UHGV virus genome: UHGV-0294841
Length of the DNA stretch: 14,865 nucleotides
Source: a virus
Direction: 5' to 3' (one strand)
Numbering within the stretch: the stretch's first letter is position 1; each line of letters starts with the position of its first letter. The notes below the pieces were generated by a model. It was not told the DNA's origin. It made no database searches and worked only from the letters and a program-made list of their open reading frames with translations. Shown in pieces: positions 1,818 through 12,772 of this stretch. Position numbers and translations under genes: made by a program.

Positions 1818-3023
1818 TTACGCCGCTGCAATCTTCAGCAGTTTGATGGCCTGCGAATCGACCAGCATCCCGCCGGTGCGCTTGGTGGTATAAAAACCGA
1901 CAAACGGTTTATTGGTGTACGGGTCACGCAGAATGCGGGTGCCGATACGGTCAACGATGGTGTAACCCCGTTTGAAGTTACCAAATGCAATGGCTTTCGC
2001 ATCAGCGGCGATATCCGGCATCTGTTCGTTTTCAGCGATACCGTAACCCGCCAGAGAGGACGGCTGCCCCAGTTCCAGCCCCGGACGCCACAGATAGTTA
2101 CCCTCGGTGTCTTTCAGCAGACGGATGGCAAACAGGCTGTTGTTGTTCATCATGAACTTCGCGCCAGTGCGGTGTGCCTTACGCAGCGTGTAAATCAGTT
2201 TGATAATGGCGTCTGCGGTCACCGCCGTCGCTTCGCCGGATACAATATGCTGAAGTTTGCCGAACGCCCGGACCTTATCGGTTTCATCAGTGGATTCATA
2301 CGCCAGGAACCCTTTCGGCTTCTTGGTACCATCGCCGGTGGTAAAGGCAATTTCTTCCTGTTCGGCAAATTCGGTTGCCAGCTCGCTGTTGATCCATGCT
2401 TCCACGTTGAAAAAGGCATCATCCAGCATTTTCTGGGTAGCCTGCGGGTTACCGTAGATTTCCCCCATGAAAGGTTCAATCAGTCCCAGTTTTGAGGTGG
2501 CAGTCTGGGAGCGCGCGTCAGTCTCGCCAACCCATCCGGAAGCCGTGCCGCCCAGATTCACCAGTTTTTTGTAGTCGGAACCGCCAACGGTGATCACCGT
2601 GGCTTCCTGGCGCATCACCACTTCATCTTTCAGCAGGGTAAGAATGTTGCGATCCAGTGCTTCCGGCACGGCATAGCCGCCGTCTTCATCGGTGCCCACC
2701 TGTAATGCCTTGCGCTCCAGATCGCGCAGACCATCTTCACGGCCTTTACGCAGGAAGCCCACAAACGCTTCTTTATGCTCGGTGGCCAGTTTATTTTGCG
2801 CACCACCTGCCGGACGTTTCAGCTCAAGAAGCTCTTTTTCAAGATCGCTTTTGAGGTTTTCCAGCTCGCTGAGTTTCCCGTTCAGGGTTTCCACCTGCCC
2901 GGCAAGTTTGCCTTTTTCCTGCTCAATCGCATCCACGCGCTTGTCGTTCTTTGCTTTGAAGTCGTCAAACTTCTGCTGCAGCTCCTGCGCGACCTGTTCG
3001 ACATCTTTAATATCAACCGCCAT
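1818..3023 (-). CDS. Major capsid protein, HK97 family, with N-terminal coiled-coil scaffolding (delta) domain
   Basis: 401 aa. N-terminal ~100 aa is a heptad-rich coiled coil ('KLAGQVETLNGKLSELENLKSDLEKELLELK'), followed by the 'GGYAVPEA' region typical of HK97-fold capsids. Position after the protease fits. Confidence 0.9.
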   Translation of the reverse strand: MAVDIKDVEQVAQELQQKFDDFKAKNDKRVDAIEQEKGKLAGQVETLNGKLSELENLKSDLEKELLELKRPAGGAQNKLATEHKEAFVGFLRKGREDGLRDLERKALQVGTDEDGGYAVPEALDRNILTLLKDEVVMRQEATVITVGGSDYKKLVNLGGTASGWVGETDARSQTATSKLGLIEPFMGEIYGNPQATQKMLDDAFFNVEAWINSELATEFAEQEEIAFTTGDGTKKPKGFLAYESTDETDKVRAFGKLQHIVSGEATAVTADAIIKLIYTLRKAHRTGAKFMMNNNSLFAIRLLKDTEGNYLWRPGLELGQPSSLAGYGIAENEQMPDIAADAKAIAFGNFKRGYTIVDRIGTRILRDPYTNKPFVGFYTTKRTGGMLVDSQAIKLLKIAAA

Positions 3024-3037
3024 CGTATTTCTCCTGA

Positions 3038-3688
3038 TTAGAAGTTCAGATTTTTCAGTGCATTCAGTGCAGAGCCCACATCCTCAGCGTCGCGCAGGGA
3101 CAGTGCGCCATAGCCCCCGGCCATGAATGCTTTGGCCTGGGTACGGGAGAGTCCGACATCACGCAGGACTCTTTCGATTTTTTTCTGTTCGGGGATTTCC
3201 CCGCGGGCCAGTGCGTTCTTGACGTCGCTGATCCGCGCCTCGTCGTTAGACGGGAACGTCACCAGGCTGACTTCCCAGAGGTCGATTTCTTTCAGCAGAA
3301 AGGCTTCTTTGCTCCGGTCGTATTCCCAGTCTTTCAGGACATACCCAATAGAAAGGCCGGTTAACGAACCGGCCTTCATGTGTGCATGTGCGCGTTTTGC
3401 GAGGGGATCATCATCAATAAGCAACCGTCCCCTGACGTAAAGCCCGACATCGTCTTCCTTCATTTCGGTGTAAACACCGATGGGTTCATCCATGCGGTGC
3501 TGCCAGAGCAGCGCAGGTAACGCTTTTCTGTCACTCCACGCCCGCAGGGAAGCAGCAAATGCCCCGGACATCACCACATCATCGTGGCTGTCCTTTACAC
3601 CAAAGACGGAGCCATACCCTTCAAACTCACCGGAGTCACTGACAGATTTCAGACTCAGCGGTACATCAAGACGTTGTTTCGTCTGCAT
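3038..3688 (-). CDS. Prohead maturation protease, HK97 family
   Basis: Motif 'FEGYGSVFGVKDSHDDVVMSGAFAASL' is typical of HK97-type prohead proteases. I prefer the ATG at 3688 (AAGGA SD 8 nt upstream, no overlap with portal) over the track start at 3724, which lacks an SD and overlaps portal by 59 nt. Confidence 0.85.
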   Translation of the reverse strand: MQTKQRLDVPLSLKSVSDSGEFEGYGSVFGVKDSHDDVVMSGAFAASLRAWSDRKALPALLWQHRMDEPIGVYTEMKEDDVGLYVRGRLLIDDDPLAKRAHAHMKAGSLTGLSIGYVLKDWEYDRSKEAFLLKEIDLWEVSLVTFPSNDEARISDVKNALARGEIPEQKKIERVLRDVGLSRTQAKAFMAGGYGALSLRDAEDVGSALNALKNLNF

Positions 3689-4907
3689 TGGCGTTATCCT
3701 TCTGCTTACCGGCTTTACTGCCATCGGAGGGTTTCGTGGTCATGTTCATCGGTGTGAGATAGACATCCCCACCGGGACGCGGATTCATATCTTCCAGGTC
3801 GCGGCAGTCATTGGGAGAGTAAATTCCCCAGTTGATCCCGGTGGCGTAGGCTTCAAAACGGGACTTCATATCCCCGCGCAGTAACGCCCCGGCGTTAAAT
3901 TTGGCGTAATAAACGCCCTGCTTACTTTTTCGTACCAGTCCGGTGTTGATCCGCTGTTCGATGCGGGTCAGATACGGCACCAGTGAATAGTTGATAAATC
4001 CCAGCCCCAGCTCTTCGATATTGTTGAAGGTGGCGCGATCGGTGTTCTGCACCATGTGCAACGGCACCCGGAACAGACGACAGATTTCTTCAAGCTGAAA
4101 CTTGCGGGTTTCCAGGAACTGGCTGTCCTCGGCGTTCAGCGCCATCGACTTCCAGTCCAGCCCCATCTCAAGGATCATCGGGCGGTGAGCATTGCCAAGC
4201 CCGGTGTGACGCTCCTCAAAATCTTTCTTCAGGCGCTCATAAGCCTGATCTGACAGCGTCTGCTCTGTACGCAACACCCCCGACGTCACCGCGCCATTGC
4301 TGAACAGTCTGGCCCCGTGCTCTTCGGTCGCTGCCGCCAGCGATATTGCCTCGCGGGCATAGGCGACGGGATTCAGCCCCACCAGTCCGTCCAGCGTCAG
4401 CGTGCGCACATGCCAGATATCCTCCTGGCTCAGTACATCCGTGGAGCCATCCGGGAATGTGACCTGATAGACCGGCTCCCAGCTACTGTTAAGCTTCGGT
4501 ACCACACAACCGGGATCGACGGGCAGCAGTTCAGCCACTTCGCCAAATGCTTTCACTTTGTAGGCGTAAAAATTTCCCCTCAGACACAGACAGGTGACCA
4601 CCAGCTCCCAGAACTCCTGCGGCGTCATATAGCTATTGGGATGCGTGGAGATCAGTTTATGCAGACGTTCGCCGGTGGCTCTCTGCTTCAGGCTGCCGTT
4701 CAGGTGATACAGATTGCAGGGCAACATCCCGACCGACTCTGCCAGCACTCTGACGCAGGAAAAAACCGCCGTCAGTCGCATGGCTCGCTGACTGCTGATC
4801 TGCTTTCCGGTATAGGTGTCGTAGGACAACCCGATGGCATCCGCCAGCTCTGCTGGCGTGGTCACCGGTGCGTCACTTTTTCGTTGAAATAATCCCGAAA
4901 AGAACAC
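3666..4907 (-). CDS. Portal protein, HK97 family
   Basis: 413 aa, positioned between terminase and protease. Only possible start is GTG at 4905-4907, preceded by GGAGG SD (in-frame stop lies immediately upstream). Confidence 0.85.
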   Translation of the reverse strand: MFFSGLFQRKSDAPVTTPAELADAIGLSYDTYTGKQISSQRAMRLTAVFSCVRVLAESVGMLPCNLYHLNGSLKQRATGERLHKLISTHPNSYMTPQEFWELVVTCLCLRGNFYAYKVKAFGEVAELLPVDPGCVVPKLNSSWEPVYQVTFPDGSTDVLSQEDIWHVRTLTLDGLVGLNPVAYAREAISLAAATEEHGARLFSNGAVTSGVLRTEQTLSDQAYERLKKDFEERHTGLGNAHRPMILEMGLDWKSMALNAEDSQFLETRKFQLEEICRLFRVPLHMVQNTDRATFNNIEELGLGFINYSLVPYLTRIEQRINTGLVRKSKQGVYYAKFNAGALLRGDMKSRFEAYATGINWGIYSPNDCRDLEDMNPRPGGDVYLTPMNMTTKPSDGSKAGKQKDNANADETTS

Positions 4908-5089
4908 TATTTACCTCCACCAACAGACAGCTGTGTACGGTCGAGATATCGCGCCACCAGCCACGACCAGAACAGGCACAACGCCCCGGCAACAACAAAC
5001 CCCGCCGGGGGATAAATCAGCCAGGCACCATACGCCAGCAAAAGCGCCCCCAGCACGCCCACCAGAGGCGCGAGAATCAGCATGATCAT
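4907..5089 (-). CDS. Small hydrophobic (two predicted TM) protein between terminase and portal
   Basis: 60-aa ORF with ATG start and GAGG SD 5-6 nt upstream. Its TAG stop overlaps the portal GTG start by 1 nt (TAGTG). Almost entirely hydrophobic: '[48 protein letters not shown]'. Confidence 0.55.
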
Positions 5090-5100
5090 AATTACCTCAG

Positions 5101-6834
5101 TTAAAGCGAGCGGATCCCATAGGACTCAATGTGGTCAGACAGCGTGTCTTCTTTCTCGTACAGCATGGCTCTGCCAACCGCCATAATCAGCGCAACTGCA
5201 CCATCGATTTTGTTTTCCGCCTGCTCTTTGACGGGCTTCACCACATCATCGTTACCCGGAATGGTTTTGCCGACCACGTTGCCGATACACCAGGTCATGA
5301 TGGGATTGCCATCATGATGAAAGCGCCCCGATTCAATTGCCGCTTCCAGCTCTTTCATCGGGTCGGACATGTTGGTGTAGTTCTGAATGATAGTGATGGG
5401 GTTCAGGTCTTCATCAGCAAGGTCATGTGAGAGCCCGGTCGCCCCGAAGGGGTCGATGGGTGACTCGCTGACCGGGCTGATTTTGTTCGCCGCTTTGGCC
5501 TCTTCGAGGATGTAGCGATAATCCACCTCCGCACCATCGGTAACGGTCAGAACGCCCATTTCCACCCATTTCTGAAAGCGTTCGGCTGTCCGGCGATCTT
5601 CATTTTTCTCGACGCTGTACACCGTGTCATACGGTACCCAGAAACGCGGGGCTACACTGTAGTAATGCGTTTTACCGTCAATCTCGCGGGTATAAAGTCG
5701 CGCCATGCTGTTCATATCCAGTTTACGCGCCAGGTCAAAGGCCAGAATGCACGGCTGCCCCTCGAACTGCTCAAGGGACAGTGATTTATCCTCGCAGCTC
5801 TGCCAGCTCACCAGGTTGAAATACGCCGAACGCGCCGACACCCAGATATTGAGGTGTTTTGTTTTAAAGACGTTTGCCAGACGGGCGTTATTTTTCGCAC
5901 GCTGCTGCTGACTTAACAAAAATTCGCGATAAACCGACACGCCAATATTTGGATTGGCTTTTTCCAGCACCTGCGGGTCGGTCCAGTCGTCACCTTCATC
6001 AACGGTATAGATGATCCCGAACAGTTCATCGTTAGGCACCGAGCCGTTGAGCATCTCGATGACTTCCCGCCGTTTGTCGTAGCACGGCCCCTCAATGTTG
6101 TACCCGGCGGTAGTGATAGCCCACATCAGTGGCTGACGTCGCGCCCCCATCCCGGTAAGCATCGTGGTGTAAAGCGCATCTGTGGCGTGCTCGTGATATT
6201 CATCCACCACCGCACAGTGGGGTGATGAACCATCACCGGGGTTACCGATCAGCGGTTCAAAACGCGCACCATCCTCCGGACGGTTCATGTTTGAGGCGTT
6301 AACCTCAATCCCGAACGCTTCCGTCAGCATGGGTGTGCGTTTACACATCAGTCTTGCCGGGCGAAAGACTTCCCATGCCTGTTTCTCTGTCGTGGCACCG
6401 GAATACACTTCCGCGCCGAACTCGTTATCACAGGCAAAACAATACAGGGCGACACCGGCAGAGATTGCCGATTTGCCGTTCTTACGGGGGATTTCGGTAT
6501 ACACCTCACGGAAGCGGCGCAGCCGGGAGCCTTTATTGACCCAGCCAAACGCGCAGCAGATCACAAAGAGCTGCCACGGCTCCAGCGTGATGGGCATCCT
6601 CTTAAATGCCCACTCACCCTTGGTGTGCGGCAACAGCTGAATAAATTTGGCGGCCCGTTCAGCCAGGTCCTTGTCGAAGCGGTAACGAAACGACTTACTT
6701 TTTTCCGCCATCAGGTCATCAAGATGGCGCTGGCAGGCCTGAATCACAAACTGGCAGGCCACAATCTTTCCGCGCACGACATCACGGGCATACTGATTGG
6801 CAGCATTTACGTTGGGGTAAGATTTCCGGCTCAT
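5101..6834 (-). CDS. Terminase large subunit
   Basis: 577 aa; Walker-A-like 'EIPRKNGKS' in the N-terminal ATPase region and an acidic C-terminal nuclease region. ATGA overlap with the small subunit. Confidence 0.9.
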
Positions 6835-7325
6835 GATTCGATGATTTTCAGAAACGGGTTAGTGGTTTTCTTCTGCCCCGCCAGGCCAATCAGACGCTGA
6901 CGGCTGCTGGGGTCGAGTCCGAGCATTGCCCCCGTGCTGCTCATCTCGGACTCCTGTTCTTTTTTGGCGGTCAGCTCCGGATTTTTGACCATGCCGCCCA
7001 TTGCACCGGTGATGGTGTTGCCCTGTCTGGCAATATTTTTCACGGCACGTCGCCAGAACTCGTAGGCCACGCACCACCGCTCAAGCACCGCGAGGTCAGT
7101 CACGCACAGCAGGCCCTGACCGCAGAGTTCTTTAGTTGTCAGTTGCCACATGATCGTAGCGAGAGGGAGATCTTCTTCAGCGAACCACTCCGGTGGCTCA
7201 ACACCTTTGATGGGCGTAAAAACAGGTTCATCTTTATTCAGGGCTCGCTTGCCGGGGTTTCCGGCCAGCGCCTTGCGCGCCGTTGGCTTGGGGCGACGCC
7301 CGGAACGCCCCGCCGTTCCAGCCAT
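6831..7325 (-). CDS. Terminase small subunit, P27 family
   Basis: N-terminus '[26 protein letters not shown]' is characteristic of P27-family small terminases. I place the start at ATG 7325 (AGGAG SD 8 nt upstream) rather than the track's GTG at 7334. Confidence 0.8.
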
Positions 7326-7334
7326 ATGCGGCAC

Positions 7335-7450
7335 TCCTGGTTAAATTTCATTTTTCGCGGGTATAAAAAAACGATGGGGCGGGCAGTCCGGAAGACGTCA
7401 GGTCACAGGGATTTGACCCGCCCCTCCCCTCTGGCAATGGGAACTGGTTC
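7335..7450 (-). other. Candidate cos/packaging-recognition region
   Basis: 116-bp non-coding gap between HNH and small terminase. Contains an 8-bp GC inverted repeat, ggggcggg (7376-7383) and cccgcccc (7417-7424), 33 bp apart, plus an A7 tract at 7366-7372. In HK97-like cos phages, cos lies between the HNH gene and terS. Confidence 0.4.
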
Positions 7451-7801
7451 TTACTTCAGCCGTTCACGGGCCGTCTTCGCCTTATGACACGGCCAGCACA
7501 GACTCTGCAGGTTACTGTCGGCATCGGTGCCGCCATGCGCTTTGGGAATGATGTGGTCAACGGTTTTCGCCTCGCGCACCACACCGGCACGCAGACACAA
7601 CTGACACAGGCCTTTGTCACGCTTCAGGACACGCGCGCGGATACTGTCCCACTTCGAACCGTAGCCGCGCTGATGACGGGATTGTCCAGGTTTGTATTGC
7701 TTCCAGCCTTCGCTTTTGTGGCTTTCGCAGTAGCCTGAAGGGTCCGTGGTTGTAGAGCGGCAGCCGCGAACACGGCAGGCTTTTGGGGTTCGTGGGGGCA
7801 T
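7451..7801 (-). CDS. HNH homing-type endonuclease, packaging-associated
   Basis: 116 aa with paired Cys ('CRVRGC...C'), a 'DHIIPKAHGG' catalytic His and 'N...CWPCH' zinc motif. Sits immediately upstream of terminase. GGAG SD present. Confidence 0.9.
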   Translation of the reverse strand: MPPRTPKACRVRGCRSTTTDPSGYCESHKSEGWKQYKPGQSRHQRGYGSKWDSIRARVLKRDKGLCQLCLRAGVVREAKTVDHIIPKAHGGTDADSNLQSLCWPCHKAKTARERLK

Positions 7802-8145: not shown

Positions 8146-8325
8146 TCCCCGCTTTATCCAAATTGCATTGCCAGAATGCCGACAACAGACTGACATTCAA
8201 ATCCTGACTACCTCCAATAGTCTGATCGTACACCTATATAGTTTTAATTTTCATCAATCCATTTAACTATCGTTTAATTGTTGTCACATAGGATTCTGCC
8301 GTTTTTAACAATGCAGGATAATAAG

Positions 8326-8619
8326 ATGAAAAAAATGTTGTTTTCTGCCGCTCTGGCTATGCTTATTACAGGATGTGCTCAACAGACGTTTACTGTTGGA
8401 AACAAACCGACAGCAGTAACACCAAAGGAAACCATCACCCATCATTTCTTCGTTTCGGGAATTGGACAGGAGAAAACTGTTGATGCAGCCAAAATTTGTG
8501 GCGGCGCAGAAAATGTTGTTAAAACAGAAACCCAGCAAACATTCGTAAATGGATTGCTCGGTTTTATTACTTTAGGCATTTATACTCCGCTGGAAGCGCG
8601 GGTGTATTGCTCACAATAA
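8326..8619 (+). CDS. bor: Bor outer-membrane lipoprotein (lambda Bor-like, serum-resistance moron)
   Basis: 'MKKMLFSAALAMLITGCAQQTFTV...EARVYCSQ' matches my recollection of lambda Bor closely, including the ITGC lipobox. I take the start as ATG 8326 (AGGA 8 nt upstream), not the track's TTG at 8278. Opposite strand to the late operon, AT-rich. Confidence 0.9.
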   Translation: MKKMLFSAALAMLITGCAQQTFTVGNKPTAVTPKETITHHFFVSGIGQEKTVDAAKICGGAENVVKTETQQTFVNGLLGFITLGIYTPLEARVYCSQ

Positions 8620-8650: not shown

Positions 8651-9112
8651 CTATCTGCACTGCTCATTAATATACTTCTGGGTTCCTTCCAGTTGTTTTT
8701 GCATAGTGATCAGCCTCTCTCTGAGAGTGAAATAATCCCGTTCAGCGGTGTCAGCCAGTCGGGGGGAGGCTGCATTATCCATGCCGGAGGCGGTGGTGGC
8801 TTCACGCACTGACTGACAGACTGCTTTGATGTGCAACCGACGACGACCAGCGGCAACATCATCACGCAGAGCATCATTTTCAGCTTTCGCATCAGCTAAC
8901 TCCTTCGTGTATTTTGCATCGAGCGCAGCAACATCACGTTGGCGCACCTGCATGTCAGTAATTGTCGAGTTCGCCAGCTTCAGTTCTCTGGCATTTTTGT
9001 CGCGCTGGGCTTTGTAGGTAATCGCGTTATCGCGGTAATGATTAACAGCCCATGACAGGCAGACGATGACGCAGATAACCAGAGCGGAGATAATCGCGGT
9101 TACTCTGCTCAT
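8651..9112 (-). CDS. Rz: Rz i-spanin
   Basis: 153 aa with N-terminal TM ('[20 protein letters not shown]') and coiled-coil periplasmic domain. ATGA overlap with R. Closely resembles lambda Rz. Confidence 0.9.
8710..8892 (-). CDS. Rz1: Rz1 o-spanin lipoprotein, embedded in the +1 frame of Rz
   Basis: '[23 protein letters not shown]...[15 protein letters not shown]' has a lipobox (VVGC) and proline-rich stretch and is nearly identical to lambda Rz1 as I recall it. Entirely nested inside Rz. Confidence 0.85.
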
Positions 9113-9585
9113 ACCTCAATCTCTCTGACAGTTCCGCCTGCTTCCTTGAATTTTGCAATCAGGCTGTCAGCCTTATGCTCGAACTGACCATAACCAGCGC
9201 CCGGCAGTGAAGCCCAGATATTGCTGCAACGGTCAATTGCCTGACGAATATCACCGCGATCAATCATCGGTAAAGCGCCACGCTCTTTAATCTGCTGCAA
9301 TGCCACTGCGTCCTGGCTTTTGGGGGAGAAGTCTTTCAAACCAAGCTGTTTACGGTAAGCATCCCACCAGCGTGAAAGAAGCTGATAACGTCCGGCGGCT
9401 GTTGACTTGAGTTTCGGGTTTAGCGTGACAAGTTTGCGAGGGTGATCGGAGTAATCAGTGAAGAGTTCACCACCGACAATAACGTCATAACCGTGGTTAC
9501 GTGTCGGTTGTCGTCCGTTATCCGTTCCTTCTGACCAAGCCACCATATCAAGGAAAGCTTTACGCTGGGAATTTAGTACCTGCAT
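9109..9585 (-). CDS. R: Endolysin R (lambda-type lytic transglycosylase)
   Basis: 158 aa; '[45 protein letters not shown]...' matches lambda R closely from memory. Sits between holin and Rz. Confidence 0.95.
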
Positions 9586-9588
9586 AAA

Positions 9589-9915
9589 TTACTCCTTAGA
9601 GCCACCAAATTTGTTACCGATTACTCGCATTGCAGCCCCACGAATAGCATCGACACCGATCAGCCCCACCCCACCACCAATGGCAACAGATAGTGATTTA
9701 GGCCATCCGACATACTCAAGAGCGGATGCAAAAGTCAGCGTCAGAGCGCCACAGAGTAGAATTTCGAGTGTTTTTCGCTTCCAGCCGCCACCACCGCCAA
9801 AATAGGCGATACGTAAACCAGCCATAACAATCGACATAATCACTGCGCCCAGCGGTGTGTCTCCACGCCACCAGCTCTGGACCAACTCCAGCCAGGTATT
9901 TGGGTTATGAGGCAT
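9589..9915 (-). CDS. Holin (not lambda S family; multi-TM, Gly-rich)
   Basis: 108 aa immediately upstream of R with 2-3 hydrophobic segments and a GGGGG motif. ATG start with a GAGG-containing SD. Assigned by position and hydropathy rather than by family recognition. Confidence 0.7.
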   Translation of the reverse strand: MPHNPNTWLELVQSWWRGDTPLGAVIMSIVMAGLRIAYFGGGGGWKRKTLEILLCGALTLTFASALEYVGWPKSLSVAIGGGVGLIGVDAIRGAAMRVIGNKFGGSKE

Positions 9916-10088: not shown

Positions 10089-10233
10089 AAGTTGTGTGGC
10101 GAAGTAACCACTCTTAACATGATACATCACTTTTTGCGGACCGTGCTAATGAAATATGTTCGTTAATTTAGTATGTTAAGGACTATCTAAATTGCCTTCA
10201 AAAAGTACAAAAAAATACAAAAAAGGGTTTCTT

Positions 10234-11331
10234 ATGAATGAGCAAACGATCAACCTTTTAAGAGATATCACCGAACGTGTTGGATGGAAGCTCACAAAAA
10301 AAATTGTGGGGGAACCACTTGGTGTCACATCAGTTGGCCTTGACCCATTTATCGCGAGGCTCCAAGCAACAGAAGATGTAGATCAGGAAGCTGTAAGTAC
10401 TCATATAGGTGAAGTATGGCAAAATTTACTATTGAGTGGGACCCGTTTAGTTAAGCTGTATAAGTTAGAACCGGAAGAAGTGCAAACTCTACGGGAGAAT
10501 ATAAATGCCCTAGAAAGAGACGAATCCGTTTTTTGCGAAAGCTATCCATATCCTTTGCCTAAAGATGTGTTGCTTGCAGCTGATACAGATCTTCATTTTT
10601 TAGAAACTACATTTTCTGTCGTAAACAAAGTTTCTTTAGAAACAACGATTCTTACGTCGAAAGCATACTACACAGAAACTATTGAACTCGACGCGACCCA
10701 TTTAAGCGATGCTGGGCTAGCTCTTCGCTCCAATGGTGGTGAAATCAAATGTAAAACACGTGAAGTTACACAGTGCTTTAATACAATAATGATTCTACCC
10801 GAGTTGCATTTACTTGCGCTCACTGTTGATTTATCTGTGATGCCTCGTTCAGAGTCGGAACGACAGCAATTTTTGCTTGATCAGTTTATTAGAACTACTA
10901 CTGGTTTGACTTTACCTGCGCCCATTGACCTCTTTGGATTAGTACAAGAAATGTACGAGCAAACAGATGGTAGAATCTCGCAGATGTCATTTCTTACATC
11001 AGATGGAAACACCAGCTCATTAAAACTCCGTCCGGGTGAAAGCTGCTTGCGCTCAGACAGCTACCATCATGGGGGCGAAGAGGCAAGTCCCATACTAACG
11101 AAATACAAACTCGGTAAAATTTGGGATCTGACTGATTCAGCTTCTCAAGTTTTCCCTGTAGAATTAATACTGCCAGGTAAACGGGCTATGATTGATAAAC
11201 CGAACAGTCACCTTTATGATGCAATCATAGATCGTTGCTCCTCAATTGAGCATATTTTGTTTGTAATCAACAAGATGTTAGAGTCACTATCAAGCATACA
11301 GAGAAAGCGAGCCACTGACGAGGCTGCATAA
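10234..11331 (+). CDS. Hypothetical protein A (365 aa), first gene of an AT-rich three-gene insert; no recognised domain
   Basis: 1.1-kb ORF in ~40% GC DNA (flanking phage genes roughly 50% or higher by my hand count), where chance ORFs are short. ATG 10234 preceded by AAAAGGG; the track's earlier start at 10192 is a TTG. 10-bp gap to gene B. Confidence 0.75.
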   Translation: MNEQTINLLRDITERVGWKLTKKIVGEPLGVTSVGLDPFIARLQATEDVDQEAVSTHIGEVWQNLLLSGTRLVKLYKLEPEEVQTLRENINALERDESVFCESYPYPLPKDVLLAADTDLHFLETTFSVVNKVSLETTILTSKAYYTETIELDATHLSDAGLALRSNGGEIKCKTREVTQCFNTIMILPELHLLALTVDLSVMPRSESERQQFLLDQFIRTTTGLTLPAPIDLFGLVQEMYEQTDGRISQMSFLTSDGNTSSLKLRPGESCLRSDSYHHGGEEASPILTKYKLGKIWDLTDSASQVFPVELILPGKRAMIDKPNSHLYDAIIDRCSSIEHILFVINKMLESLSSIQRKRATDEAA

Positions 11332-11341
11332 AGAGTTGATT

Positions 11342-11764
11342 ATGTTAACTAAACACGACATATACTCGAAAATCAACCACGACCTACATGGGCCGGTTGG
11401 AGATTTATGTCGTGTTGTGGTTGATTTTTTAACCAGCAAAGAAGCTAAGTCACTGAAACACATAACATATGTAAGTTTGGTTAATGGTACTAAGCTTGAT
11501 GTGCAAAATAACGATGCCAAAGTTTTACTGATCAAAGTAACTGACTATCTTTCGAGCAACAGAATGCACTTGCTAGATATGCATTTCCAGTATATCGAGT
11601 CTGACGATAGTGATCCTATTCCCGTCGATGATGATGACGTGTCTCATGCGCTTCATACAGGTAAGTTTTATCATCCTTACAGTGGTCAATTAGTCGATAA
11701 TTATAATCATTATTTGTTCCCATACTTCACTCCTACTGAGGCTTTGGAGGAATTACATGAGTGA
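11342..11764 (+). CDS. Hypothetical protein B (140 aa), acidic
   Basis: ATG 11342 with AAGAG SD. Stop overlaps gene C start by 8 bp (ATGAGTGA). Acidic tract 'ESDDSDPIPVDDDDV'. No family recognised. Confidence 0.7.
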   Translation: MLTKHDIYSKINHDLHGPVGDLCRVVVDFLTSKEAKSLKHITYVSLVNGTKLDVQNNDAKVLLIKVTDYLSSNRMHLLDMHFQYIESDDSDPIPVDDDDVSHALHTGKFYHPYSGQLVDNYNHYLFPYFTPTEALEELHE

Positions 11765-12392
11765 ATGTAATTTCAACCTTGCCCAATTAGACACCTTAAG
11801 TCAATTTGACCCTGAATTGTCTGGTTTTCTTAAGCGAAAATTTGCAGCAAGTCACGACGATTTCGTGAAGCAACTTTACGTTGACCTTGATGACGCGATG
11901 TATGTTTTGGAAACCCAAAAACATATGTATCAAACACAGCAGTGGGGTGAAGATGAGCTCACATCAGTTATTATTGCTTTTTTGAAAGGCCGTAATTATG
12001 ACGCTGAACATGACACTCAGCATGGAGGGCATATAGATATATTAGTTAAACATCAGCTCGGCCGATTTGCATGGATTGGCGAAGCTAAATTATGGAAAGG
12101 TCCTGCGTACATCTTAGGTGGATGGAACCAGCTCAACGAGCGATATGGCACTGGCACTGCGCGTGACAACCATGGTGGCATTATCATTTACTGTAAAATT
12201 AAGAAATCTGGCGAGAGACTTGATGACTGGCGAAAGCATCTTCAGCAGGAAGTAGCTGATGCAAAAATTACAACCGACGAGGATAATCCCTTGCGATTCA
12301 TGAGTACAACATTGCATCCAGCTACAAATCAACCATATTATGTAAGACATATGGTCGTTTCATTATTTCATGCTACAGGAGACTCAGAGTAG
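11757..12392 (+). CDS. Hypothetical protein C (211 aa) with PD-(D/E)xK nuclease-like motif
   Basis: 'GEDELTSVIIAFL...GGHIDILVKHQLGRFAWIGEAKLW' places an Asp at the end of a hydrophobic strand 15 residues before an E-A-K triplet, the classic PD-(D/E)xK arrangement, with an upstream Glu-containing helix. ATG start coupled to gene B. The 3' end overlaps the Q gene 3' end by 25 bp, convergently. Confidence 0.75.
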   Translation: MSECNFNLAQLDTLSQFDPELSGFLKRKFAASHDDFVKQLYVDLDDAMYVLETQKHMYQTQQWGEDELTSVIIAFLKGRNYDAEHDTQHGGHIDILVKHQLGRFAWIGEAKLWKGPAYILGGWNQLNERYGTGTARDNHGGIIIYCKIKKSGERLDDWRKHLQQEVADAKITTDEDNPLRFMSTTLHPATNQPYYVRHMVVSLFHATGDSE

Positions 12393-12754
12393 TCATCCAT
12401 TTCAAGTTTCACATCCAGCATACTTAGGCAGCCATCGATAAAACCTTCAGCAACCTGTATCTCGATACGTATCAATTTTTCGTCTTTATTACGTGCCTTT
12501 GCGATCTTTCTTTTCGAGATGCCATACAGGTAATGAGCCACAATCAAAGAATGTTCGTACGGTTTTCTCTTCTTAAGAAGAGCAAGGCTACCTTCAATAA
12601 TTAATGCATCACTATCTGAACAAGCTAGACGTGTCTTTCTGGTATATGGAAGAAGCCCCTTAAACCCAGCAGCTATAGACGAATAGTCAACTCCTGAGCT
12701 ATCACTCGCTGCCCATGCCCCCCAACGTTCAAGGATCATCTGTATATTACGCAT
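12368..12754 (-). CDS. Q: Late-gene antiterminator Q (21/82/QuuD-like family)
   Basis: 'MRNIQMILERWGAWAA...SSIAAGFKGL...IEGMLSMLDVKLEMD' resembles QuuD/Q21-type antiterminators as I recall them, and the ~128-aa size fits. Start taken as ATG 12754 with GGAGA SD. Sits upstream of the lysis cassette. Confidence 0.75.
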   Translation of the reverse strand: MRNIQMILERWGAWAASDSSGVDYSSIAAGFKGLLPYTRKTRLACSDSDALIIEGSLALLKKRKPYEHSLIVAHYLYGISKRKIAKARNKDEKLIRIEIQVAEGFIDGCLSMLDVKLEMDDYSESPVA

Positions 12755-12772
12755 CAACTTTCTCCGAAAAAA

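What the first reader, a model, noticed from the sequence alone, without database searches (positions are those of the whole stretch)
4907..5089. Small two-TM membrane protein wedged between terminase and portal
A 60-aa, almost entirely hydrophobic ORF with its own SD, coupled by a 1-nt overlap to the portal start. Membrane proteins are unexpected inside the packaging/portal gene pair. It could be a superinfection-exclusion or membrane-targeting moron, or a toxic small protein, rather than a structural component.
Basis: partly seen in the sequence, partly recalled or inferred. Interest (0 to 1): 0.45.

Follow-up and report, generated by a model that had tools for sequence, protein, structure and literature searches.

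The report
ymfR: portal-coupled small membrane protein
The 60-codon reading frame is real: it is the prophage gene ymfR, already annotated in E. coli K-12, which encodes a two-helix membrane hairpin of unknown function that stays fused to the phage portal gene in viruses of very distant bacteria and so looks like a conserved head-gene partner, not a stray add-on.

Summary
The ORF is 60 aa, has a GAGG Shine-Dalgarno sequence 5 nt before its ATG, and its TAG stop shares one base with the portal GTG start. All charged residues lie in the last 14 aa, and AlphaFold2 predicts a helical hairpin.

It is coding and under purifying selection: dN/dS is 0.09-0.31, and variable sites by codon position are 26/13/42 of 46.

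It is not new. It is 98% identical to E. coli K-12 e14 YmfR, occurs in 1389 of 5426 complete E. coli genomes, and belongs to PHROG 502. Phages SfI, SfII, ST64B (sb3), phiP27 and phiKO2 (gp3) carry it. I found no functional study.

The moron/exclusion reading is not supported. The gene has no promoter or terminator of its own and no GC deviation. The family (over 1,400 clusters at 90% identity) sits directly upstream of an HK97-type portal gene in 76 of 78 informative motif-selected viral contigs. This holds in Proteobacteria, Firmicutes and Streptomyces. When the terminase is swapped or foreign genes are inserted, the gene stays with the portal.

It is dispensable: HK97 and two closer relatives lack it.

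The best mechanism is inferred only: a late inner-membrane accessory factor made in step with the portal, possibly a membrane docking site for it.

The parts
4907..5089 (-). ymfR-family CDS, 60 aa, including the TAG stop. It is the orthologue of E. coli K-12 e14 ymfR and a member of PHROG 502.
   Evidence: ORF and translation. (phrog_502, E=1.5e-27). (PGAP name 'protein YmfR'; 98.3% aa identity to K-12). (dN/dS 0.09-0.31).
5094..5098 (-). Shine-Dalgarno sequence GAGGT of ymfR. It lies 4-5 nt before the ATG and inside the 11-nt gap after the TerL stop.
   Evidence: sequence. The GAGG is invariant in 19 diverged 5' regions.
5015..5086 (-). Transmembrane helix 1 (residues 2-25). It has small-residue faces: G11-A15-A19 and G14/G21.
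   Evidence: AF2 helix 2-25. (19-residue hydropathy windows up to 2.67). (G11, G14 and G21 invariant).
5000..5014 (-). Tight turn Y26-P-P-A-G30. It is the centre of the family motif [SA][YF]G[AV]W[LM]I[YF]PPAG[FY]I. By the positive-inside rule it is inferred to face the periplasm.
   Evidence: the motif is conserved in Proteobacteria, Ruminococcaceae and Streptomyces.
4952..4999 (-). Transmembrane helix 2 (residues 31-46), with a G30-A34-C38-S42 small-xxx-small face and W41/W43 at the cytoplasmic interface.
4910..4951 (-). Short, variable cytoplasmic tail (residues 47-60). It holds all four charged residues, and its final GG(K/E/D) is conserved.
   Evidence: the tail is variable apart from GG. 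(charges).
4914..4918 (-). Portal Shine-Dalgarno sequence GGAGG, embedded in the last ymfR codons (Gly-Gly-Gly) and 6 nt before the portal GTG. It explains the conserved C-terminal GG.
   Evidence: (GGAGG, GGGGG or AGGGGG sits at the same place in diverged homologues).
4905..4909 (-). Stop/start overlap TAGTG: the ymfR stop and the portal start share one base.
   Evidence: The equivalents TAATG and TGATG occur in 47 of 47 close loci and in 66 of 78 informative motif-selected loci.
3666..4907 (-). HK97-type portal gene (413 aa, GTG start), the downstream partner of the two-gene unit.
   Evidence: PF04860, E=4e-108. (phrog_12).
5101..6834 (-). Terminase large subunit gene (577 aa), the upstream neighbour. 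It is exchangeable relative to the ymfR-portal pair.
   Evidence: PF03354, PF20441. (relatives carry a different TerL with the same ymfR-portal pair).
5054..5072 (-). Six-bp RNA hairpin inside the 5' part of the CDS (CDS nt 18-36). One base pair is formed by two synonymous third-codon positions that covary. Its function is unknown.
   Evidence: (98% of cells paired; pair 43-55 is GC 11, UA 4, CG 2, GU 1, other 1; 0 of 500 shuffles reach the observed covariation score).

Best explanation
SHOWN. This is ymfR, a genuine late-operon gene of an HK97-head-type prophage. It encodes a 60-aa helical hairpin with two membrane-spanning helices joined by a tight YPPAG turn. The short, positively charged C-terminal tail, and in longer homologues a charged N-terminal extension, place both ends in the cytoplasm. 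The gene has no transcription signals of its own. It is wedged into the translationally coupled TerL-portal junction. Its last codons carry the portal's ribosome-binding site, and its stop codon overlaps the portal start. The gene and the HK97-type (PF04860) portal gene form a unit that stays together across phyla, through terminase swaps and through insertions of foreign DNA.

INFERRED. During lytic growth the protein is made in step with the portal and inserts into the cytoplasmic membrane. It probably self-packs or oligomerises through its small-xxx-small helix faces. There it acts as a non-essential accessory factor of the portal / prohead-initiation step. The most likely role is a membrane docking or nucleation site, working like T4 gp40 with the membrane-bound gp20 portal initiator. 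It is not a moron and not a lysogen-expressed exclusion gene.

Confidence that it is a real YmfR-family, portal-coupled membrane hairpin is about 0.95. Confidence in the portal-docking mechanism itself is about 0.3.
For: Identity and coding
- phrog_502, E=1.5e-27.
- 98% aa identity to K-12 YmfR; found in 1389 of 5426 complete E. coli genomes.
- dN/dS 0.09-0.31, with third-position variation.
- AF2 predicts a hairpin.
- Charges lie only in the tail.

Coupling
- SD plus an 11-nt gap upstream; the portal SD lies inside the last codons; TAGTG overlap.
- The same overlap (TAATG/TGATG) occurs in all 47 close relatives.
- It also occurs in Reyranella, Shinella, Rhodoferax and Geobacter loci. In Ruminococcaceae the overlap is 23 nt.

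Linkage to the portal rather than the terminase
- Serratia loci: TerL 36%, portal 72%, small ORF 52-58% identical.
- phi467 and 606R7 share the ORF and portal but have another TerL.
- SfV shares a 97% identical TerL but has a 27% identical portal. It carries a different family member (phrog_7105, E=3e-22; also phrog_502, E=6e-6), which is unannotated in the record.
- A Streptomyces prophage has a Terminase_6-type TerL and a ClpP protease, yet still has the ORF next to a PF04860 portal.
- In L027 and L036, opposite-strand ORFs (not identified) lie between TerL and the ORF, not between the ORF and the portal.
- Of 80 IMG/VR loci picked only by the peptide motif, 76 of 78 informative ones have the portal within 150 nt, and 66 have the exact 1-nt overlap.

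Not a moron
- No promoter or terminator above chance.
- GC is not deviant.
- The mRNA is SOS-induced together with e14 (PMC10012262).

Precedent
- The T4 portal initiator is membrane-bound and depends on gp40 (PMC9958956).
Against: - No experiment on any family member was found.
- The gene is dispensable. HK97 has TerL abutting the portal. L083 and L090, with portals 66% and 57% identical, lack it. So do about 85% of sampled portals at 37-49% identity.
- The most conserved residues lie in the turn and the outer-leaflet halves of the helices. The cytoplasmic parts, which would have to touch a cytoplasmic portal, are short and variable. This fits a membrane or periplasmic target, or a purely structural constraint, better than direct portal binding.
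- Portal N-termini show no feature specific to ORF-carrying loci.
- Tight linkage could partly be a by-product of the 1-nt overlap. Two loci show the junction can be split, by an HNH homing endonuclease.
- To my knowledge (not checked here), HK97-type proheads assemble from cloned portal, protease and capsid genes without a membrane factor.
Confidence: 0.35

Rival explanations
1. A holin-like, pinholin-like or viroporin-like late membrane effector, that is, a 'toxic small protein'. The hairpin oligomerises through its glycine/small-residue zippers. It would permeabilise or depolarise the membrane or tune lysis timing, independently of the portal. The portal gene merely provides late, strong, coupled expression.
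For: - It has 50-70 aa, two TM helices, both ends in the cytoplasm and a basic C-terminus, like class II holins (topology).
- Gly and small residues are invariant on both helices.
- Conservation is concentrated within the bilayer and the turn rather than in the cytoplasmic parts.
- Tandem-duplicated members exist (P0152, P0163, P0175, P0247).
- The gene is dispensable in some lineages.
Against: - No member hits any Pfam family at all, holin families included, at E<=0.1.
- The window already has a complete S-holin / endolysin / Rz cassette at 8651-9915.
- In no locus examined was the gene seen next to a lysis gene. Such neighbours were not specifically screened for in most loci.
- The C-terminal tail is short and weakly charged.
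- Independence from the portal would not predict that 76 of 78 motif-selected loci keep the portal adjacent across phyla.
Confidence: 0.15
2. One reading: a superinfection-exclusion or DNA-entry-blocking membrane protein, like HK97 gp15, T4 Imm or P22 SieA. It would be either a moron expressed from the prophage or a late-expressed block against re-infection.
For: - Small inner-membrane proteins are the classic exclusion effectors (HK97 gp15: PMC3594210).
- PHROGs files phrog_502 under 'moron, auxiliary metabolic gene and host takeover'.
- The gene is present in some relatives and absent in others.
- ymfR is intact in the decayed K-12 e14 element, although both of its neighbours are truncated.
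Against: - It fails the moron criteria. It has no promoter or terminator of its own and its GC matches its neighbours.
- The K-12 transcript rises only with e14/SOS induction.
- No PADLOC hit.
- The core motif is conserved from Streptomyces and Ruminococcaceae to E. coli. This is unlike exclusion genes, which in my experience are lineage-specific and target a particular phage's entry machinery.
- Its position is always beside the portal.
- Its intactness in e14 is explained by its lying inside the retained TerL-3'/portal-5' fragment.
Confidence: 0.12
3. Mainly a translational or mRNA-localisation device. Translating a hydrophobic mini-ORF just before the portal sets the portal's translation rate by coupling, or tethers the polycistronic head mRNA to the membrane. 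The peptide would have no specific partner.
For: - The stop/start overlap and the embedded portal SD are conserved.
- The conserved C-terminal GG is explained by the SD.
- The cytoplasmic segments are variable.
- A conserved small hairpin lies early in the CDS.
- Where the ORF is absent, TerL and the portal overlap directly, so coupling is the constant feature.
Against: - Amino-acid conservation is far stronger than generic hydrophobicity would need: 22 invariant columns among sequences 58-90% identical to the window's.
- The YGAWxIYPPAGF motif is shared across phyla.
- dN/dS is 0.09-0.31.
Confidence: 0.08
4. Not a gene: a chance ORF in a GC-rich intergenic spacer, or an RNA element such as the 'putative rho-independent terminator' annotated in the SfII record.
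For: - A terminator-like hairpin with 12 pairs and a TTTTGCTG tail lies at 5071..5044. It is annotated in SfII.
- Antisense ORFs of 50-78 aa overlap the region.
Against: - The substitution pattern is that of a coding sequence, and only in this frame.
- Family members run to over 1,400 clusters at 90% identity, nearly all 45-80 aa among those listed.
- The long hairpin is lost in K-12 and other homologues.
- Terminator-like sites are no more frequent than in shuffles: 6 found against 4.3 +/- 2.5 expected.
Confidence: 0.01

Closest known systems
E. coli K-12 e14 prophage protein YmfR (b1150); also SfII_03, ST64B Sb3, the phiP27 'putative integral membrane protein' and phiKO2 gp3; PHROG 502
   Same: Same gene. 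It is 98% identical in amino acids to K-12 YmfR and 94-100% identical over the aligned stretch (residues 27-60) in the Shigella, Salmonella and phiP27 phages. Length, two-TM hairpin and the slot between TerL and portal all match.
   Different: Nothing of substance. In K-12 the flanking TerL and portal are truncated pseudogenes, whereas here both are intact. None of these homologues has an assigned function.
PHROG 7105 (for example the unannotated 53-aa ORF of phage SfV)
   Same: It occupies the same slot, overlaps both the TerL stop and the portal start, and is a two-TM hairpin with a basic C-terminus. Homology is weak but significant (phrog_502, E=6e-6).
   Different: It lacks the YPPAG turn motif and accompanies a portal only 27% identical to this one.
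Bacteriophage T4 gp40, the membrane-associated factor for the gp20 portal initiator
   Same: It is a phage membrane-associated protein that helps the portal, the nucleus of prohead assembly, form at the inner membrane (PMC9958956). This is what I infer YmfR works like.
   Different: No sequence relationship was tested or is expected. To my knowledge T4 gene 40 is not adjacent to gene 20. HK97-type assembly is not known to need a membrane. The YmfR-portal interaction is unproven.
HK97 gp15 and other small inner-membrane superinfection-exclusion proteins (T4 Imm, P22 SieA)
   Same: A small prophage-encoded inner-membrane protein sitting inside a late structural operon (PMC3594210).
   Different: gp15 is a classic moron with its own promoter and terminator and deviant GC, and it is expressed from the repressed prophage. 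ymfR has none of these features. The ymfR family is conserved across phyla and tied to the portal.
Class II holins and pinholins (for example phage 21 S68)
   Same: Similar size, two TM helices, both ends in the cytoplasm, glycine-zipper-like faces and a basic C-terminus.
   Different: No Pfam family of any kind is hit, holin families included. It was not seen next to an endolysin gene in the loci examined. The window has its own PF05106 holin at 9589-9915.
Lambda gpW, the head-tail joining protein (the label given to this ORF in some GenBank records)
   Same: Same slot between TerL (A) and portal (B), and similar length. Records ON470603, ON470584 and PQ793804 use this name.
   Different: To my knowledge gpW is a soluble portal-binding protein. 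This ORF is a hydrophobic membrane hairpin with no Pfam hit of any kind at E<=0.1, so none to a gpW family either. The label is positional mis-annotation.

Membership tests
YmfR / PHROG 502 small phage membrane protein | Significant sequence match to the family profile and to the named K-12 protein | tested here: met
   phrog_502, E=1.5e-27 over residues 1-55. 98.3% identity to K-12 YmfR over 60 aa. PGAP names the matching gene 'ymfR: protein YmfR'.
YmfR / PHROG 502 small phage membrane protein | About 60 aa, two hydrophobic helices joined by the [YF]GxWxI[YF]PPAG[FY] turn | tested here: met
   81 of the 120 best homologues are exactly 60 aa.
YmfR / PHROG 502 small phage membrane protein | Located immediately upstream of, and overlapping, an HK97-type (PF04860) portal gene | tested here: met
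   Window: TAGTG overlap. Family: 47 of 47 close loci and 76 of 78 motif-selected loci.
Moron (as described in PMC3594210) | Own promoter and terminator allowing expression from the repressed prophage | tested here: not met
   There is an 11-nt gap to TerL and a 1-nt overlap with the portal. The nearest promoter-like site on the coding strand lies about 500 nt upstream inside TerL, and site counts equal chance. The internal terminator-like hairpin is not conserved.
Moron (as described in PMC3594210) | [quoted passage not shown] | tested here: not met
   GC is 0.56-0.59 over the ORF, against 0.47-0.63 in TerL and the portal.
Moron (as described in PMC3594210) | Extra DNA relative to related phages (presence/absence polymorphism) | tested here: met
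   HK97, L083 and L090 have TerL directly overlapping the portal. However, all relatives with a portal at least 70% identical carry the gene.
Superinfection-exclusion proteins (HK97 gp15, T4 Imm, P22 SieA) and known defence genes | Sequence membership in a known exclusion or defence family | tested here: not met
   No PADLOC hit at E<=0.1 for the window protein or four diverse members. No Pfam or NCBIfam family.
Superinfection-exclusion proteins (HK97 gp15, T4 Imm, P22 SieA) and known defence genes | Blocks infection or DNA entry of incoming phage | not testable with these tools
   This needs efficiency-of-plating assays with YmfR expressed.
Class II holin / pinholin | Two TM helices, both ends in the cytoplasm, 60-95 aa, charged C-terminus | tested here: inconclusive
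   The topology and size fit. The tail has only a +2 net charge over 14 residues.
Class II holin / pinholin | Match to a holin family, and a location in a lysis cassette next to an endolysin | tested here: not met
   No Pfam hit of any kind. The lysis cassette is 3.6 kb away at 8651-9915 and has its own PF05106 holin. The family always sits beside the portal.
Lambda gpW head-tail joining protein | Sequence match to gpW; a soluble, non-membrane protein | tested here: not met
   No Pfam hit of any kind at E<=0.1, apart from a sub-threshold TctB match. GRAVY is 1.95 over residues 1-46.
T4 gp40-like membrane factor for portal assembly (functional class) | Membrane protein | tested here: met
   Predicted only: hydropathy and the AF2 hairpin.
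T4 gp40-like membrane factor for portal assembly (functional class) | Needed for, or enhances, portal ring formation or prohead initiation at the membrane; physical contact with the portal | not testable with these tools
   Only genetic linkage is shown.
T4 gp40-like membrane factor for portal assembly (functional class) | Sequence similarity to gp40 | not tested
   The gp40 sequence was not at hand. No similarity is expected.

The most novel reading that the evidence does not exclude
In a large share of tailed phages with HK97-type portals, from actinobacterial and clostridial to proteobacterial hosts, portal-ring formation or prohead initiation is not purely cytoplasmic. Instead it is anchored or templated at the cytoplasmic membrane by a dedicated two-TM mini-protein (the YmfR superfamily, PHROG 502 plus PHROG 7105). 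This protein is co-translated with the portal and possibly forms its own ring through glycine-zipper packing. That would generalise the T4 gp40/gp20 membrane-initiator idea to the most common phage head lineage, and it would give a function to an uncharacterised E. coli K-12 y-gene.
Probability: 0.22. Interest if true: 0.75.

Novelty: already known. Interest (0 to 1): 0.42.

Why it matters
The gene itself is ordinary. It is annotated in E. coli K-12 and in many phage records, so the window adds no new entity.

Three things came out of the follow-up:

- The 'moron / exclusion' label, which PHROGs also uses as its category, does not fit the evidence.
- This uncharacterised y-gene belongs to a very large family: over 1,400 clusters at 90% identity, or 376 at 50%.
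- The family is physically and translationally tied to the HK97-type portal gene across at least four bacterial phyla. I found no report of this in the searchable literature.

If the protein really works with the portal, it would bring the membrane into HK97-type head assembly. That bears on how a single portal ring is nucleated. It is directly testable in tractable phages such as SfI, SfII, ST64B, phiKO2 and PY54.

The practical value is for annotation. Several records omit the gene (SfV, SfIV, PY54) or mislabel it as lambda gpW. The SfV portal start is probably annotated 16 codons too early.

Tried and rejected
- Curated family searches found nothing beyond PHROGs. Pfam gave only a sub-threshold TctB hit for the window protein and nothing meaningful for ten diverse members. 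NCBIfam gave nothing, and PADLOC gave nothing.
- Searching PDB sequences with the family profile gave one chance hit, E=0.7.
- Foldseek of the AF2 hairpin against the PDB gave only E of about 7-9 hits to histidine-kinase helices, which are meaningless for a 60-aa hairpin.
- Literature. 'ymfR' appears in 14 papers, only in gene lists, deletion lists or typos for yfmR. Searches for 'terminase and portal' plus 'membrane protein', 'upstream of the portal' plus 'transmembrane', SfII, phrog_502 and b1150 gave nothing relevant. The phiKO2 genome paper is not held.
- A nine-sequence portal alignment was too diverse for the locus finder. I replaced it with a six-sequence alignment.
- My first HMM for the small ORF was too narrow, built with only 8 extra sequences. 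I rebuilt it with 131 sequences.
- I first thought SfV lacked the gene. That was wrong: it carries an unannotated, divergent member.
- I looked for a portal N-terminal feature specific to ORF-carrying loci and found none. The amphipathic 'xxFxxLF' start occurs with and without the ORF.
- The SfII-annotated 'rho-independent terminator' inside the ORF was rejected as a conserved element.
- I searched the best 120 to 150 hits of two large searches for fusions of the family to the portal or other domains. None appeared, but lower-ranked hits were not visible.
Full report
**1. The observation**

It encodes 60 aa: [60 protein letters not shown].

- Upstream lies the terminase large subunit (6834..5101, PF03354 plus PF20441). 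Downstream lies an HK97-type portal (4907..3666, PF04860, E=4e-108). After that come an S78 prohead protease and an HK97-fold capsid gene.
- The TerL stop (5103-5101) is followed by 11 nt that contain GAGG (5098-5095), 5 nt before the ATG.
- The last codons, GGT GGA GGT AAA TAG, contain GGAGG (4918-4914), 6 nt before the portal GTG (4907-4905). That GTG shares its G with the TAG stop.
- GRAVY is 1.95 for residues 1-46. The only charged residues are R47, D50, R51 and K60.
- AlphaFold2 on a 17-sequence alignment predicts helices 2-25 and 27-57, with pLDDT 77.

**2. Is it a gene?**

Yes.

- I compared eleven enterobacterial copies 47-90% identical in protein to the window's. They give Nei-Gojobori dN/dS of 0.09-0.31 over codons 1-46 in this frame. 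Variable sites number 26, 13 and 42 at codon positions 1, 2 and 3. The other frames lack this signature.
- A search of 5.8 billion proteins found 166 clusters at E<=1e-3. Of the 120 listed, 81 are exactly 60 aa.
- All 47 IMG/VR loci whose portal is at least 70% identical to this one keep an intact 58-64-aa ORF ending in TAGTG, TAATG or TGATG.

**3. What it is**

A BLAST search against complete E. coli genomes shows the stretch in 1389 of 5426 genomes. PGAP annotates it as 'ymfR: protein YmfR'.

- In K-12 MG1655 it lies in the e14 element, between a 5'-truncated TerL and a 3'-truncated portal pseudogene. The protein there is 98.3% identical to the window's.
- The same gene is annotated as a 'membrane protein' or 'putative integral membrane protein' in phages SfI, SfII and phiP27, and as sb3 in ST64B. 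A more distant member is gp3 of the linear-plasmid prophage phiKO2, again with a 1-nt overlap onto the portal gene gp4.
- It matches PHROG 502 ('membrane protein', E=1.5e-27). It matches no Pfam, NCBIfam or PADLOC family.
- In the searchable literature ymfR occurs only in gene lists. The one informative item is RNA-seq showing it induced (log2FC 4.5) together with the other e14 genes under SOS-inducing conditions (PMC10012262).

**4. Surroundings and relatives: the main result**

*Genome scan with the enterobacterial motifs.* A scan of one genome per species using motifs from the enterobacterial alignment returned 38 loci. In all but two remnant loci with room to judge (L034, L038), a tblastn-detectable relative of this portal starts within a few bases to about 100 nt of the small ORF's stop. 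This holds where the portal is only 29-39% identical and TerL 20-26% identical. Those cases are Reyranella, Shinella, Rhodoferax, Lysobacterales, Geobacter and Ruminococcaceae. The stop/start overlap TGATG or TAATG recurs in nearly all; in Ruminococcaceae the overlap is 23 nt.

*Independent test on viral contigs.* This scan selected loci only by the peptide motif G[AV]Wx[IV]YPP[AV]. It gave 80 IMG/VR loci. Of 78 with room to judge, 76 have the portal within 150 nt and 66 have the exact 1-nt overlap. The two exceptions carry an HNH homing endonuclease inserted between the ORF and the portal.

*Streptomyces.* A Streptomyces prophage combines a Terminase_6-type TerL and a ClpP-type protease. It still has a 55-aa family member directly before a PF04860 portal.

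*Family size.* There are 376 clusters at 50% identity and 1444 clusters at 90% identity. Nearly all of those listed are 45-80 aa, and a few are tandem duplications.

*Conservation pattern.* The conserved core is the end of helix 1, the turn, and the start of helix 2: [SA][YF]G[AV]W[LM]I[YF]PPAG[FY]I. The cytoplasmic ends vary. The exception is a terminal GG, which is simply the portal's Shine-Dalgarno sequence read as protein.

**5. The gene travels with the portal, not the terminase**

- Serratia loci: TerL 36%, portal 72%, small ORF 52-58% identical.
- phi467 and 606R7 share the ORF and the portal but not TerL.
- L020 has its recombination junction inside the TerL 3' end.
- SfV has a 97% identical TerL but a 27% identical portal. 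In the 'gap' between them I found an unannotated 53-aa two-TM ORF. It overlaps the TerL stop (ATGA) and the probable true portal start. It hits phrog_7105 (E=3e-22) and, weakly, phrog_502 (E=6e-6). So the whole ORF-portal pair was exchanged together.
- In Reyranella loci L027 and L036, opposite-strand ORFs (not identified) sit between TerL and the small ORF, never between the ORF and the portal.

**6. The gene is not universal or essential**

- HK97 itself has TerL abutting the portal.
- In a portal-selected (unbiased) IMG/VR sample, L083 and L090 (portals 66% and 57% identical) lack it.
- L087, L088 and L095 (portals 55-58% identical) carry the phrog_7105-type version.
- Of about 26 portals at 37-49% identity, only four have a two-TM mini-ORF in the slot.

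**7. Against the moron / exclusion reading**

PMC3594210 describes morons as having their own promoter and terminator and a GC content that differs from the neighbours.

- Here there is no room for transcription signals.
- Promoter-like sites (2 found against 2.1 expected) and terminator-like sites (6 against 4.3 +/- 2.5) are at chance level.
- The terminator annotated inside SfII_03 (window 5071..5044) disappears in K-12 and other homologues.
- GC is 0.56-0.59, within the neighbours' range of 0.47-0.63.
- Conservation of one motif from Actinobacteria to E. coli is unlike exclusion genes.

An exclusion or toxic activity during the lytic cycle cannot be ruled out by computation.

**8. Mechanism**

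*Shown.* The protein is a hairpin membrane protein, by prediction. Its translation is coupled to the portal's, and it is co-inherited with the portal.

*Inferred.* It is made in step with the portal late in infection, inserts into the inner membrane with both ends in the cytoplasm, and serves as an accessory factor for the portal / prohead-initiation step. The nearest working analogy is T4, where the gp20 portal initiator is membrane-bound and depends on gp40 (PMC9958956).

*Weaknesses.*
- The parts that could reach a cytoplasmic portal are short and variable.
- The best-conserved residues face the outer leaflet or periplasm.
- The gene is dispensable in some lineages.

I therefore give the docking mechanism about 0.3. 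The rest is spread over:
- a holin- or viroporin-like effector (0.15);
- exclusion (0.12);
- a coupling or mRNA-tethering device (0.08);
- unknown functions.

**9. Novelty and verdict**

The feature is real but already known as an annotated, uncharacterised gene. The window copy is an ordinary orthologue. The phylum-spanning ORF-portal unit was not described in any paper I could search. It makes a concrete, testable hypothesis, which is why interest is moderate rather than low.

Noticed in passing
window 10192-12392 (+ strand): Three tightly packed ORFs of 379, 142 and 211 aa lie on the strand opposite to the phage late genes, between antiterminator Q (12757..12368) and the S holin (9915..9589). 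None has a Pfam hit. The third has a weak PADLOC hit (PDC-S54, E=7e-6). The position is the classic Q-to-lysis cargo hotspot, so this is a candidate defence or moron cassette.
   Followed up: partly
window 5054-5072 (- strand), inside ymfR codons 6-12: A six-bp RNA hairpin is conserved in 19 diverged enterobacterial copies (98% of cells paired). Its one freely variable pair joins two synonymous third-codon positions (codon 7 and codon 11). That pair covaries: GC 11, UA 4, CG 2, GU 1, mismatch 1. None of 500 shuffles reaches the observed covariation score. There are perhaps only 2-3 independent events, and the role is unknown.
   Followed up: partly
L002 (phage SfV, NC_003444) 2762-2923, minus strand: An unannotated 53-aa two-TM ORF (MKSLIADVIGLAGFGLLTCGVYLQFGMAPALILSGALLLVGALAMARRGTRAA; phrog_7105, E=3e-22) fills the 'gap' between TerL and the portal. 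The annotated SfV portal start is probably 16 codons too far upstream. A GTG after AGGGGGA gives the usual N-terminus MLLDALFRSKS.
   Followed up: yes
GenBank records seen: Annotation of this gene is inconsistent. It is missing in SfIV (KC814930/NC_022749) and PY54. It is called 'head-tail joining protein W' in vB_EcoM-720R4, -689R6, -606R7 and Salmonella phage As1, which is a positional mislabel, since the protein is a membrane hairpin with no Pfam hit at all.
   Followed up: partly
window 8323-8619 (+ strand): A Bor lipoprotein gene (PF06291, E=7e-31) lies on the opposite strand next to the Rz gene. Bor is known from lambda as an opposite-strand lipoprotein moron, a useful contrast with ymfR, although its promoter, terminator and GC were not checked here.
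   Followed up: partly
window 7451-7801 (- strand): An HNH endonuclease (PF01844, E=2e-16) lies about 120 nt upstream of the small terminase gene (7334..6831). This is the arrangement typical of HK97-type cos phages.
   Followed up: no
L158 2690-3493 and L159 2593-3393: In two IMG/VR contigs an HNH-motif endonuclease gene of about 267 aa is inserted exactly between the YmfR-like ORF and the portal. These are the only cases seen where the pair is split.
   Followed up: partly
Proteins P0152, P0163, P0175, P0247: Proteins of 100-122 aa consist of two tandem copies of the YmfR-type hairpin, that is, internal duplication within the family.
   Followed up: no
OR844959.1, L006 and L004: Near-identical copies of this E. 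coli/Shigella-type segment occur in unexpected records. They are a 1.8-kb record named 'Enterococcus phage Efm 3-10' (96%), a 5.6-kb contig of a 'Bacillota bacterium' MAG (98% aa) and a 42-kb Edwardsiella hoshinae contig (100% aa for YmfR). The first two look like contamination or mis-binning.
   Followed up: no
L003 (E. coli K-12 e14) 5621-7358: In K-12 e14, ymfR is intact while TerL has lost its N-terminus and the portal its C-terminus. The retained block is one contiguous TerL-3'/ymfR/portal-5' fragment, so the intactness need not mean selection.
   Followed up: partly
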